DNA of 64,000 nt from the human T2T-CHM13v2.0 reference genome, Homo sapiens. Position 1 is the stretch's first letter. Each line of letters begins with the position of its first letter. The translations under genes and the position numbers were made by a program. The notes beneath the pieces were generated by a model that was not told the origin of the DNA, made no database searches, and was given only the letters and a program-made list of their open reading frames with translations. The stretch lies in assembly GCF_009914755.1 (NCBI RefSeq), contig NC_060936.1; one strand, given 5' to 3'. Shown piece by piece: positions 36,063-40,241 of the stretch.

Positions 36063-37146
36063 TGAGGTATGTTATGGCTTAACCCTTCACCCTTCACCTC
36101 AATAGAGTTTTTATTTTATTTTATTTTGAGATGGAGTCTGGCTCTGTTATCCAGGCTGGATTCACCGTGGCACAATCTCGGCTCACTGCCTCAGCCTCCC
36201 GAATAGCTGGGATTACAGGCGCCTGCCACCGCACCTAGCTAATTTTTGTATTTCAGTAGAGACGGGGTTTCACCATGTTGGCCAGACTGGTCTTGAACTC
36301 CTAACCTGAGGTGATCTGCCTACCTTGGCCTACCAAAGTGCTGGGATTACAGGCGTGAGCCACCGTGCCTGGCCTCAATAGAGTTTTTAAAAAAATAAAC
36401 AAAGTCTCCCAATTCCAAACAATAGGAATAGATCTTCATCACACCAATTTGTACTTTATTTCTTATACTTGAGGTTAGATTCTAAACCCTAAAGATATCC
36501 AGACTAGTATTAGATCTACTTATCTATAGCCAGAGACAGCTTCTATCAATGTTGTCCTTAACAGCCAAGGTTATTAAAATGTCTTTTCTCAGGAAAGATC
36601 CAATAGGAAAAAAGAAAGAAACCTCTCTGATTAGGCTCCAACCATACCCCACCCTCCATGAGATTGACTGGATAGGCATCATGGAAACCAGAACACGTAG
36701 TTTCCATACAAGAAAAATCCTATGAGGGATGGGAGGAGGGGAGAGGAAGGATTCAGCCAGTGTCCAGACTGAAACTGAGTAACATCAATTTCACTCATCT
36801 TCACACGTCTTCAGGTTGCATGTTCATGGAGTAGTTTAGGAATAAATCCATGGTTTGTGGAGTACTAAAATACCTAGTGGTCTGCTGTATTACATTAAGG
36901 CCTTCCCCAGCAGCTTCCAAGGCAGCCTCCAAGTCACTGGCAGGAGAATTTGGCTGGAACTGCATGCAGGACTGCAGAGATTCCTCTCCACAGTTATAGA
37001 AGGGACTGTTCCAGGCCTGATTGTTCCAGGATTGGGTGCACCAGGTCTGAGTGTTCCAGGAGTGGTTGCTCCAGGACTGGATGTTCTGGGTCTCGTTGCT
37101 CCAGGTTGAATTGTTCCAGGTCTGGTTGCTCCACATTGGAAGGTTC
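36063..37146 (-). repeat. Inverted duplicate of NANOGP1 exon 4 (from NLPMW) and 3'UTR, within intron 2
   Basis: Reverse complement of 38744-~40100, minus the Alu at ~39433-39716. The ORF track shows the NANOG WR/CD2 peptide on both strands (36801-37151 minus; 38730-39089 plus). Confidence 0.97.
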
Positions 37147-38450
37147 TTCACCTCTTTCTTTCATTAAATATCTATTACGTGAATGTGATATAATTTAACC
37201 ACTTTCTTTTCTTGCATAGACCAATATTGTGAAAATCTTTCCAATGTTTCCTTAATCAAAAAGAATTATGGGCCGGGCGCAGTAGCTCACACCTGTAATC
37301 CCAGCACTTTAGGAGGCCAAGGCAGGCAGATTACCTGAGGTCAGGAGTTCAAGACCAGCCTCGCCAACATGGTGAAACCCCGTCTCTACTAAAAATACAA
37401 AAAATTGCCGGGCGTGGTGGTGGTTGCCTGTAATCCCAGCTACTAAGGAGGCTGAGGCAGGAGAATTGCTTGAACCCATGAGGTGGAGGTTGCAGTGAGC
37501 CGAGATCTTGCCACTGCACTCCAGCCTAGGCGAAAGGTCAAGACTCCGTCTCAAAAAAAAAAAAAAAAAAAAAAAAAAAGAATTACATAACTCCACTTTC
37601 CAGGTTAGGAGAATTCCTAACTTACACTGGTTCTCATTAAAATAAAAACTACCTCTTCTTTTTCCTTTTTTTCTTTCTGCCAGCAGCCTCCAGCTTCTTT
37701 TGTTTTTAGCCCTTATTTTGTATCGAAAATGTTCATTTCTCTTTTTTATTTTTATTTTTTTTAAAACAGTCTTTGTTGCCCAGGCTGGAATGCAGCTGTG
37801 CAATCTTGGCTCACTGCAACCTCCACCTCCCAGGTGCAAGCGATCCTTCCATCTCCGCGCCTGAGTAGCTGGGACCATAGGCACACACCATTATGCCGGG
37901 CTAATTTGTTACTTTATTTTATTTTTTTGAGACGGAGTCTCGCTCTGTCGCCCAGGCTGGAGTGCAGTGGCGCAATCTCGGCTCACTGCAAGCTCCGCCT
38001 CCCGGGTTCAAGCCATTCTCCTGCCTCAGCCTCCCGAGTAGCTGGGACTACAGGCGTGCGCCGCCACGCCCGGCTAATTTTTTTTTTTTTTTTTTTTTTT
38101 TTGTATTTTTAGTAGAGACGGAGTTTCACCATGTTAGCCAGGATGGTCTTGCTCTCCTGACCTCATGATCCGCCCGCCTCGGCCTCCCAAAGTGCTGAGA
38201 TTACAGGCGTAAGCCACTGCGTATGCCTGGCTAATTTTTTTAATTTTTGTAAAGACAGGGTTTCACCATTTTGGCGAGGCTGGCGCGAACTCCTGGGCTT
38301 AAGCAATTCGCCCACCTTGGCTTCCCGAAGTGTTGGGATTACAGGTGTGAGACATGGTGCCTGGCCAGGAATAAAAGTTAGTAGTATTCTTTCATTCAAA
38401 GTACATCCGTATTATTAATATTTTATAATTTCTGTCATTTTTTCCTGCAG

Positions 38451-38537
38451 GTGAAGACCTGGTTCCAGAACCAGAGAATGAAATCTAAGAGGTGGCAGAA
38501 AAACAACTGGCTGAAGAATAGCAATGGTGTGACGCAG
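38451..38537 (+). CDS. NANOGP1: NANOGP1 exon 3 (homeodomain recognition helix [16 protein letters not shown])
   Basis: tttcctgcag| acceptor and CAG|GTAACA donor, 87 nt. Confidence 0.93.
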
Positions 38538-38672
38538 GTAACAGGAAACTTCATTCTGTTCTTTCCTTTCAGTGATCTTTCAATCTTGTCCATCCCTGAA
38601 ACACACAACTCCAGTCACAGACAGTTCTGGTTGTCCTTGTACCCTTTCTGTTAATCTCTCCTTCTCTTTGAG

Positions 38673-39089
38673 AAGGCCTCAGCACCTACCTACCCCAGCC
38701 TCTACTCTTCCTACCACCAGGGATGCCTGGTGAACCCGACTGGGAACCTTCCAATGTGGAGCAACCAGACCTGGAACAATTCAACCTGGAGCAACCAGAC
38801 CCAGAACATCCAGTCCTGGAGCAACCACTCCTGGAACACTCAGACCTGGTGCACCCAATCCTGGAACAATCAGGCCTGGAACAGTCCCTTCTATAACTGT
38901 GGAGAGGAATCTCTGCAGTCCTGCATGCAGTTCCAGCCAAATTCTCCTGCCAGTGACTTGCAGGCTGCCTTGGAAGCTGCTGGGGAAGGCCTTAATGTAA
39001 TACAGCAGACCACTAGGTATTTTAGTACTCCACAAACCATGGATTTATTCCTAAACTACTCCATGAACATGCAACCTGAAGACGTGTGA
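38673..39089 (+). CDS. NANOGP1: NANOGP1 exon 4 CDS (CD1, tryptophan repeat, CD2); alternative in-frame acceptor at 38721
   Basis: [34 protein letters not shown]...MQPEDV*. The proximal acceptor is GAG rather than CAG. CAG|GGATGC lies 48 nt downstream. Confidence 0.9.
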
Positions 39090-40241
39090 AGATGAGTGAA
39101 ATTGATGTTACTCAGTTTCAGTCTGGACACTGGCTGAATCCTTCCTCTCCCCTCCTCCCATCCCTCATAGGATTTTTCTTGTATGGAAACTACGTGTTCT
39201 GGTTTCCATGATGCCTATCCAGTCAATCTCATGGAGGGTGGGGTATGGTTGGAGCCTAATCAGAGAGGTTTCTTTCTTTTTTCCTATTGGATCTTTCCTG
39301 AGAAAAGATATTTTAATAACCTTGGCTGCTAAAGACAACTTGATAGAAGCTGTCTCTGGCTATAGATAAGTAGATGTAATACTAGTTTGGATATCTTTAG
39401 GGTTTAGAATCTAACCTCAAGAATGAGAAATAAGCTGGGCGCGGTGGCTTACATCTGTAATCCCAGCACTTTGGGAGACCAAGGCGGGCGGATCACGAGG
39501 TCAGGAGATCGAGACCATCCTGGCTAACACGGTGAAAACCTGTCTCTACTAAAAAATACAAAAAAGTTAGCTGGGCATGGTGGTGGGCGCCTGTAGTGCC
39601 AGCTACTCGGGAGGCGGAGGTTGCAGTGAGCCAAGATCGCGCCACTGCACTCCAGCCTGGGCGACAGAGTGAGACTCTGTCTCAAAAAAAAAAAAAGAAA
39701 AAGAAAAAGAAAAGGAAATAAAAGTACAAATTGGTGTGATGAAGATATATTCCTATTGTTTGGGATTGGGAGGCTTTGTTTATTTTTTTAAAAACTCTAT
39801 TGAGGCTGGGTATGGTGGCTCACACCTGTAATGGCAGCACTTTGGGAGGCCAAGGTAGGCAGATCACCACAGGTTAGGAATTCAAGACCAGTCTGGCCAA
39901 CATGGTGAAATCCCGTCTCTACTAAAATACAAAAATTAGCTGGGCATGGTGGCAGGCGCCTGTAATCCCAGCTACTCGGGAGGCTGAGCGGAGATGGTGC
40001 CACAGCAATCCAGCCTGGATGACAGAGCCAGACTCCATGTCAAAATAAAATAAAAACTCTATTGAGGTGAAGGGTGAAGCTTTAAGTTGTTACATACTTC
40101 ACTGATTTCCTCAACCCTTTTTGGCTCCGTTTTACTATAGCCCGTATTTTGTTGGTTATGACTAATATTTGTGGAAAGAGGTCTTGTGTTTAGTGCATTA
40201 TAATGGCATCAGTACTACTTCGGCTGGTTTAAGTACTAATG

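What the first reader, a model, noticed from the sequence alone, without database searches (positions are those of the whole stretch)
36583..39308. Sharp identity step between the inverted arms points to arm-to-arm gene conversion
Seen: over ~565 bp (37146-36583 vs 38744-39308) I count only two mismatches (NETQ/NQTQ and LEA/LQA). Past gagaaaaga the arms diverge (gacatttt/gatatttt, gttaagg/gctaaag, indels), and only the + arm has the extra Alu at ~39433-39716. Both arms share an older, internally deleted Alu with the TSD aaaaactctattgagg. So the duplication is old while its inner part is young, even though the intronic copy should be neutral. Inference: recurrent conversion, as in palindromes, with the intronic copy possibly serving as a repair template for the NANOGP1 transactivation domain.
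Basis: partly seen in the sequence, partly recalled or inferred. Interest (0 to 1): 0.8.

Follow-up and report, generated by a model that had tools for sequence, protein, structure and literature searches.

The report
Gene conversion between NANOGP1 inverted copies
An old backwards copy of the last NANOGP1 exon lies in the gene's own intron, and its inner 565 bases were recently overwritten to match the exon by gene conversion, a well-known copying process seen here at a stem-cell gene duplicate.

Summary
NANOGP1 intron 2 carries a 1.08-kb inverted copy (36063-37146) of exon 4 plus its 3' flank (38744-40101). NANOG has no such copy. The arms differ at 2 of 565 inner sites and at 10 of 209 in the next non-Alu stretch. 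The maximum-likelihood change-point falls exactly after 39308, and 0 of 2000 permutations reach its score. Five neutral processed pseudogenes mutate no more slowly in the inner part, so a low mutation rate does not explain the step. Outer differences are split between the arms (5 and 7 derived), as expected for an old duplication. A recent arm-to-arm conversion tract on an old inverted duplication is therefore the best reading (about 0.8).

There is also a second step. NANOG is identical to the common sequence of both arms up to 39101, then differs at 12 of 207 sites. NANOG and NANOGP1 are also unusually similar across neutral intron 3 (3/183, against 7.6% in other introns). So NANOG has also exchanged sequence with NANOGP1 exon 3 to exon 4.

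"Recurrent" conversion is supported only in the sense of at least two separate events. The "repair template" role is not supported. The mechanism is ordinary. I found no description of this instance in the papers searched.

The parts
36063..37146 (-). Inverted intronic copy (- arm) of NANOGP1 exon 4 from codon N-L-P-M-W onward plus 3' flank. It lies in NANOGP1 intron 2 and is absent from NANOG intron 2.
36583..37146 (-). Inner, near-identical tract of the - arm (2 differences from the + arm)
38744..39308 (+). Inner tract of the + arm: exon 4 coding part to the stop at 39086-39088, then 3'UTR to 39308
37147..38743 (+). 1597-bp spacer between the arms. It contains NANOGP1 exon 3 (38451-38537), intron 3 and the first 23 nt of annotated exon 4.
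   Evidence: hub annotation
39309..39433 (+). First outer segment of the + arm, 7/125 substitutions plus 1 indel against the - arm (36457-36582)
39434..39721 (+). Alu private to the + arm, flanked by GAAATAA on both sides. It inserted after the inverted duplication.
39722..39805 (+). Second outer non-Alu segment (3/84 against the - arm 36373-36456)
39806..40051 (+). Alu shared by both arms (the - arm copy is 36113-36372), flanked by duplicated aaaaactctattgagg. It is absent from NANOG, so it inserted after the tandem duplication and before the inverted one.
38435..39101 (+). Stretch where NANOGP1 and NANOG are unusually alike (5 substitutions in 667 bp, including intron 3 at 3/183). Read as an inter-locus conversion tract.
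39301..39314 (+). Site homologous to the target-site duplication of the antisense Alu in the NANOG 3'UTR. The arm identity step (39308/39309) and the end of the chr14 processed pseudogene fall here too.

Best explanation
After the NANOG/NANOGP1 tandem duplication, and after an Alu had landed 3' of NANOGP1, a 1.08-kb piece was copied in reverse into NANOGP1 intron 2. The piece ran from 23 nt inside annotated exon 4 to about 670 bp past the annotated transcript end, not counting the Alu that entered the + arm later. It replaced about 18 bp of the intron and left only 3-5 bp of microhomology at the junctions. That points to a template-switch or end-joining origin, not retroposition (inferred). 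The two arms then diverged neutrally to about 5%, more in the CpG-rich Alu. Much later, at least one non-allelic gene conversion between the arms homogenised the spacer-proximal 565 bp, from the edge of homology at 38744/37146 to 39308/36583. One new substitution has since arisen on each arm. Separately, NANOG and the NANOGP1 exon 3 - intron 3 - exon 4 coding stretch (about 38435-39101) exchanged sequence. The simplest order is the NANOG-NANOGP1 exchange first and the arm-to-arm tract second, because the intronic arm also carries the NANOG-identical sequence. What is shown: the anatomy, the two identity steps, and the exclusion of slow mutation. What is inferred: order, direction, dates and molecular mechanism.
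For: Arm identity step:
- 2/565 inner vs 17/254 non-Alu outer (Fisher p=1.4e-7). The change-point falls after 39308, reached by 0/2000 permutations.
- arms in 3'UTR segment b are 0/207 vs 10/209 in c+d (p=0.0018). The step therefore holds outside coding sequence.

Not slow mutation:
- five processed pseudogenes pooled give 114/2704 (4.2%) private substitutions inner vs 16/684 (2.3%) outer.

Old duplication:
- with the pseudogenes as outgroup, outer differences are 5 derived on the + arm and 7 on the - arm. Inner differences are 1 and 1.
- the - arm is an insertion relative to NANOG intron 2. The shared Alu is absent from NANOG.
- the private Alu in the + arm has flanking repeats.

NANOG exchange:
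- triplet patterns (NANOG, +, -). Segment a (358 sites): 0 NANOG-odd, 1 +odd, 1 -odd. Segment b (207 sites): 12 NANOG-odd, 0, 0. Segments c+d (182 sites): 4 NANOG-odd, 3 +odd, 4 -odd, 1 three-way.
- NANOG vs NANOGP1 by feature. Intron 3 is 3/183 and exon 4 CDS 1/368, against 3'UTR 14/221 and the 3' end of intron 2 at 9/80.
- intron 3 vs other introns (108/1420), p=0.001.
Against: - Only one human haplotype and no other primate could be examined, so concerted evolution by species is untested.
- The data cannot separate one conversion event from many.
- Direction is unknown.
- The step coincides within about 6 bp with the NANOG 3'UTR Alu insertion site and with the end of the chr14 pseudogene. 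Simple arm-to-arm conversion does not predict this.
- In segments c+d, NANOG is no further from the arms than they are from each other. The NANOG-NANOGP1 history of the 3'UTR is therefore itself mosaic, and the relative age of the inverted duplication is uncertain.
- Segment counts are small (7/125, 3/84).
Confidence: 0.8

Rival explanations
1. Recurrent, palindrome-style arm-to-arm conversion in which the intronic copy serves as a backup that keeps the NANOGP1 C-terminal (tryptophan-repeat and transactivation) region intact.
For: The arms are near-identical across the whole coding part of exon 4. At least two separate exchange events touched exon 4, with different right edges at 39101 and 39308. 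Maskalenka et al. 2023 (PMC10110494, section 9 read) report an intact NANOGP1 only in great apes.
Against: One event explains the arm pattern. The tract also covers 220 bp of 3'UTR, so it does not follow the coding part. The exon copy carries a derived, uncorrected E>Q (38961), while the intronic copy carries derived Q>E (38796). Conversion from a neutral copy spreads damage as readily as it repairs it. If NANOG donated to exon 4, the later arm event ran from exon to intron copy.
Confidence: 0.1
2. NANOG converted each arm separately, and the arms look alike only because both were overwritten by the same donor.
For: In 38744-39101 NANOG equals both arms apart from one private change each. The arm step lies at the point where homology with NANOG is broken by the NANOG Alu.
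Against: In 39102-39308 the arms are identical (0/207) and share 12 differences from NANOG. In one search, 39107 and 39191 are NANOGP1-only states. 39115, 39183, 39296 and 39298 are shared only with the chr7 copy. So this part cannot come from NANOG. It also needs three events instead of two.
Confidence: 0.05
3. There was no exchange. The inner part simply mutates more slowly or is held by selection.
For: Part of the tract is coding sequence that Fairbanks and Maughan 2006 (PMC1457002, passages read) regard as conserved by selection.
Against: Neutral processed pseudogenes change at 4.2% inner vs 2.3% outer. The - arm is an antisense intronic fragment without a splice acceptor. The 3'UTR part is also identical between the arms. 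At the outer rate of 4.8%, about 27 differences are expected in 565 bp, and 2 are seen.
Confidence: 0.02
4. Two-step origin: the outer part of the - arm was inserted first, and the inner part was added later by a second, contiguous inverted duplication.
For: It would also give an old outer and a young inner part. Only one genome was seen.
Against: It needs a second event that lands exactly colinear with the first and in the same orientation, with no junction scar at 36582/36583. Homology-directed copying, which is conversion, does this naturally.
Confidence: 0.03

Closest known systems
Arm-to-arm gene conversion in sex-chromosome palindromes (human Y P1-P8; primate X palindromes). Abstracts seen in the search listing: PMC3723533, PMC8600007, PMC8327919, PMC8981503.
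   Same: Inverted arms around a spacer on one chromosome. Arm identity is far above what the age of the duplication allows. The homogenised stretch includes coding sequence.
   Different: The arms here are about 1.1-1.4 kb, not 8 kb to over 1 Mb. Only the spacer-proximal 565 bp is homogenised, and the rest of the arm is 4-9% diverged. The locus is autosomal. One arm is a gene fragment inside an intron of the same gene. No cross-species or GC-bias evidence is available.
Inter-locus gene conversion between tandem gene duplicates. Textbook cases such as globin genes are recalled and come from no call. Teshima and Innan 2004 is cited as a possibility for NANOG paralogues in PMC3894937.
   Same: NANOG and NANOGP1 are direct tandem duplicates. 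They show a discrete stretch of very low divergence that includes a neutral intron.
   Different: Here the tract is passed on to, or shared with, a third inverted copy. I found no paper that claims conversion for human NANOG/NANOGP1.
Hairpin-forming inverted pseudogene copies that give endogenous siRNAs in mouse oocytes (recalled, not checked in any call)
   Same: NANOGP1 pre-mRNA would contain a 565-nt near-perfect intramolecular duplex. 358 nt of it match the NANOG coding sequence apart from one private change on each arm.
   Different: No RNA data were examined. Nothing shows that the duplex forms or is processed.

Membership tests
Non-allelic gene conversion between inverted repeats | Two homologous arms in inverted orientation on the same chromosome | tested here: met
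   (596 nt at 99%, 1597 nt spacer, further colinear blocks)
Non-allelic gene conversion between inverted repeats | A discrete tract with identity significantly above the rest of the homologous arm | tested here: met
   2/565 vs 17/254, p=1.4e-7; change-point after 39308; 0/2000 permutations
Non-allelic gene conversion between inverted repeats | The excess identity is not due to a low mutation rate or to selection | tested here: met
   pseudogenes 4.2% inner vs 2.3% outer; 3'UTR part 0/207 vs 10/209; the - arm is an intronic antisense fragment
Non-allelic gene conversion between inverted repeats | The duplication is older than the tract by independent markers | tested here: met
   (outer derived changes 5 and 7 on the two arms); private Alu with flanking repeats in the + arm only
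Non-allelic gene conversion between inverted repeats | Arms group by species rather than by position (concerted evolution) | not testable with these tools
   Only T2T-CHM13 is held ('It has no relatives here')
Non-allelic gene conversion between inverted repeats | GC-biased outcome of conversion | tested here: inconclusive
   Only two arm differences lie in the tract, both C/G transversions
Large sex-chromosome-type palindromes | Arms of many kilobases with more than 99% identity along the whole arm | tested here: not met
   Arms are 1084 and 1358 bp. Identity is 99.6% only in the inner 565 bp and 84-96% beyond
Inter-locus conversion between NANOG and NANOGP1 | A discrete low-divergence stretch that includes neutral sequence, flanked by normally diverged sequence | tested here: met
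   intron 3 at 3/183, exon 4 CDS 1/368, against 9/80 and 14/221 in the flanks; tract vs flanks p=4.6e-9; intron 3 vs other introns p=0.001

The most novel reading that the evidence does not exclude
The conversion keeps a 565-bp intron 2 / exon 4 fold-back in NANOGP1 pre-mRNA almost perfect. Within it, 358 bp match the NANOG coding sequence apart from one private change on each arm. This long double-stranded RNA could have a function in the naive pluripotent cells and early embryos where NANOGP1 is transcribed. It could be an editing or nuclear-retention signal that limits NANOGP1 output, or a source of small RNAs that also match NANOG. The exchange among NANOG, the exon and the intronic copy would then be what keeps that match.
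Probability: 0.05. Interest if true: 0.7.

Novelty: new member of a known kind. Interest (0 to 1): 0.4.

Why it matters
NANOGP1 is debated as pseudogene or working gene. Its close match to NANOG in exons 2-4 has been read as selection, both by Fairbanks and Maughan 2006 and, for great apes, by Maskalenka et al. 2023.

This locus shows that sequence exchange is at work. A neutral intronic fragment and neutral intron 3 are as well "conserved" as the coding sequence. Part of that argument for selection, and the dates based on coding divergence, therefore need re-examination.

The near-identical inverted arms flank exon 3. They could therefore mediate a 1.6-kb inversion that would break the gene, and they would form a long fold-back in the pre-mRNA. 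Both can be tested in existing pangenome and RNA data.

Tried and rejected
- **RNA families:** an Rfam scan of 35500-40500 gave 0 matches.
- **Trees:** trees of inner vs outer parts were considered and not built. The inverted copy postdates the tandem duplication, so the arms are sisters in every segment and only branch lengths differ. Site-pattern counts were used instead.
- **Slow mutation or selection:** rejected.
- **NANOG as sole donor to both arms:** rejected by segment 39102-39308.
- **The chr7 processed pseudogene as a retrocopy of NANOGP1:** tested and rejected. At the 44 exon-1 sites where NANOG and NANOGP1 differ, it is NANOG-like at 28, NANOGP1-like at 11, other at 4 and a gap at 1.
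could not be run, because only this one genome is held.
- **Literature searches:**
  - NANOGP1 + gene conversion: 3 papers.
  - NANOG2 + gene conversion: the same 3 papers. The conversion passages in all three were read, and none concerns human NANOG/NANOGP1 exchange or the inverted copy.
  - NANOGP1 + inverted: 12 papers, 11 listed. The term passages in two were read and are unrelated. The others were judged by title only.
  - NANOGP1 + A-to-I: 0 papers.
  - 'inverted' and 'palindrom' occur 0 times in PMC1457002 and PMC10110494. 'inverted' occurs 0 times in PMC2938211.
  - Booth and Holland 2004 and the supplements of PMC10110494 (Fig. S5 alignments) were not seen and may bear on this.
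Full report
**Anatomy**

A repeat scan of 35500-40500 finds an inverted pair, 36551-37146 vs 38744-39339 (596 nt, 99%, 1597 nt apart). It continues colinearly as 36456-36549 vs 39340-39433 (96%), 36190-36457 vs 39721-39988 (93%), and on to 36063 vs 40101.

A global alignment of the arms shows three things:
- Homology starts abruptly at 37146/38744.
- The + arm alone carries an Alu at about 39434-39721. It is flanked on both sides by GAAATAA, which the - arm has once.
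- Both arms share a shorter Alu (39806-40051; 36113-36372) flanked by duplicated aaaaactctattgagg.

By the hub's annotation the + arm is NANOGP1 exon 4 from 23 nt inside it, running on into the 3' flank. The - arm lies in intron 2, and the spacer holds exon 3.

**The copy is specific to NANOGP1**

A search of the window's own genome with 38744-39433 gave 14 matches. They are the two arms, NANOG exon 4 (plus strand only), and processed copies on chromosomes 7, 2, X (two), 15, 14, 9, 10 and 6.

blastn of the NANOGP1 region against the fetched NANOG locus L011 shows that intron 2 is colinear up to 36052 and again from 37146. The - arm is therefore an insertion relative to NANOG.

At the junctions, about 18 bp of intron are replaced, and only TGAAG-like and TTC microhomologies are seen. 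There is no target-site duplication and no poly(A). I infer a template-switch or end-joining origin.

The shared Alu is missing from NANOG, which has the empty site. The inferred order is: tandem duplication, Alu insertion, inverted duplication, then insertion of the private Alu into the + arm.

**The step**

With the private Alu removed, the arms align over 1085 columns with 42 substitutions and 16 gap columns. By segment (gap columns were left out):

| Segment | Substitutions / sites |
|---|---|
| 38744-39308 (inner) | 2/565 |
| 39309-39433 | 7/125 |
| 39722-39805 | 3/84 |
| shared Alu | 23/251 |
| distal 45 bp | 7/45 |

- Fisher tests against the inner part give p=1.4e-7 for all non-Alu outer sequence (17/254) and p=6.8e-5 for the two nearest segments (10/209).
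- A single change-point likelihood scan peaks exactly after 39308 (2dLL=48.1). None of 2000 permutations reached it.
- None of 2000 permutations gave a difference-free run as long as the observed 347 bp. This also held with the Alu columns dropped.

**Not a slow-mutating stretch**

Five processed pseudogenes (chr7, chr2, two on X, chr9) were aligned with the arms and NANOG. I counted their private substitutions.
- Excluded from the count: 39296-39314, 39428-39433, and everything past 39745. In segment c, NANOG, chr15 and chr14 were not used as comparators, because their Alu or truncation spoils the alignment there.
- Pooled result: 114/2704 (4.2%) inner and 16/684 (2.3%) outer.

The inner part is therefore not intrinsically slow.

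Selection cannot hold the - arm either. It is an antisense intronic fragment. In addition, the 3'UTR part 39102-39308 is 0/207 between the arms, against 10/209 just beyond (p=0.0018).

**The outer part is truly old**

The five pseudogenes served as outgroup. Columns 39428-39722 around the hand-cut Alu junction were left out. The 12 outer differences up to 39805 split into 5 derived on the + arm and 7 derived on the - arm. The two inner differences split 1 and 1.

Neither arm has simply been overwritten from elsewhere in its outer part.

Using the 1.25e-9 per site per year quoted in Fairbanks and Maughan (passage), I infer these ages:
- 10/209 corresponds to about 19 million years.
- 2/565 corresponds to about 1.4 million years. 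The Poisson range on two events is roughly 0.2-5 million years.
- A slower rate (recalled, from no call) would scale both up about 2.5-fold.

**A second step, involving NANOG**

I removed the antisense Alu of the NANOG 3'UTR (L011 about 6010-6311) and counted three-way site patterns:

| Segment | Sites | NANOG odd | + arm odd | - arm odd | Three-way |
|---|---|---|---|---|---|
| 38744-39101 | 358 | 0 | 1 | 1 | 0 |
| 39102-39308 | 207 | 12 | 0 | 0 | 0 |
| 39309-39805 | 182 | 4 | 3 | 4 | 1 |

All three copies are alike up to 39101 (a vs b, p=4.8e-6). From there to 39308 only the arms are alike.

Upstream, NANOG vs NANOGP1 by feature:
- 9/80 in the last part of intron 2
- 1/87 in exon 3
- 3/183 in intron 3
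- 1/368 in the exon 4 coding part
- 14/221 in the 3'UTR
- Other intron stretches total 108/1420 (7.6%)

Intron 3 is significantly lower than the other introns (p=0.001). A neutral intron and the neutral intronic arm share the low divergence. This stretch (about 38435-39101) therefore reflects sequence exchange between NANOG and NANOGP1, not only purifying selection.

Fairbanks and Maughan found 15 reading-frame differences, 12 of them in exon 1 and the other three at positions 246, 384 and 477. They explained the pattern by selection (passages). The word "conversion" does not occur in that paper.

**How it most likely works**

Two events suffice:
1. An exchange between NANOG and NANOGP1 over exon 3 to the end of the coding sequence.
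2. A later conversion between the inverted arms, from the homology edge at 38744 out to 39308.

The second event is needed because the arms share differences from NANOG in 39102-39308. In one search, 39107 and 39191 are NANOGP1-only states. 39115, 39183, 39296 and 39298 are shared only with the chr7 copy.

If NANOG was the donor in the first event, the donor in the second was the exon copy. Direction is not determined by the data. "Recurrent" conversion is thus supported only as two separate events touching exon 4.

The repair-template idea has no support. The exon copy carries the derived E>Q at 38961 and the intronic copy the derived Q>E at 38796.

**Unexplained coincidence**

Three features fall close together:
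- The step lies at 39308/39309.
- The NANOG Alu has its target-site duplication at the equivalents of 39301-39314, a TTTT/AA-type site.
- The chr14 processed copy ends its homology at the equivalent of 39309 and continues as half an Alu in the other orientation.

This may be chance, or the site may be prone to nicks that started the tract. I could not test it.

**Consequences (inferred)**

The arms give a computed duplex of -1177 kcal/mol over the inner 565 nt of the pre-mRNA. They also flank exon 3 in inverted orientation, so crossover between them would invert it. No Rfam family matches the region.

**Novelty**

The mechanism is the well-known one seen in sex-chromosome palindromes (abstracts in the listing). 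This locus fails the size and whole-arm identity criteria of that class.

In the searches, and in the passages read, I found no description of the intronic inverted copy or of NANOG-NANOGP1 conversion in humans. Booth and Holland 2004 and the supplements of PMC10110494 were not seen.

Noticed in passing
window 39301-39314; L011 about 6000-6325; L009 (chr14 copy): The arm identity step, the target-site duplication of the antisense Alu in the NANOG 3'UTR, and the 3' end of homology of the chr14 processed pseudogene all fall within about 6 bp. The site is GAGAAAAGA(C/T)ATTTT/AATAA, which looks like an L1-endonuclease target. The chr14 copy continues as a half Alu in the opposite orientation. This may be a break-prone site or chance.
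   Followed up: partly
window 39115, 39183 (also 39296, 39298); L003 (chr7 copy): The chr7 processed pseudogene is a NANOG retrocopy by exon 1: NANOG-like at 28 of 44 sites where NANOG and NANOGP1 differ, and NANOGP1-like at 11. Yet it shares states seen otherwise only in the NANOGP1 arms at two to four 3'UTR sites. It could be a fossil of a past NANOGP1-to-NANOG conversion allele, or parallel change. The last two sites lie in a poorly aligned patch.
   Followed up: partly
window 32552-32916 vs L011 96-459: NANOGP1 exon 1 is more diverged from NANOG (44/363, 12.1%) than the introns are (7.6%). Exons 2-4 are far less diverged. The locus is a mosaic of very different divergence levels.
   Followed up: partly
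window about 39329-39350: NANOG and its chr15 retrocopy lack about 22 bp that both NANOGP1 arms and the older processed pseudogenes have. This is a deletion on the NANOG lineage, just 3' of its Alu.
   Followed up: no
window 37271-37576, 37740-38366: The spacer between the arms is itself packed with Alus in both orientations. One example is 37391-37576 vs 37905-38090, inverted, 84%. These add further fold-back potential around exon 3.
   Followed up: no
window 38673 vs 38721: The annotated NANOGP1 exon 4 starts at 38721. Sequence matching the longer NANOG exon 4, which by recall encodes [16 protein letters not shown], lies just upstream from about 38673. The model therefore uses the downstream acceptor. 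No tool confirmed this.
   Followed up: no
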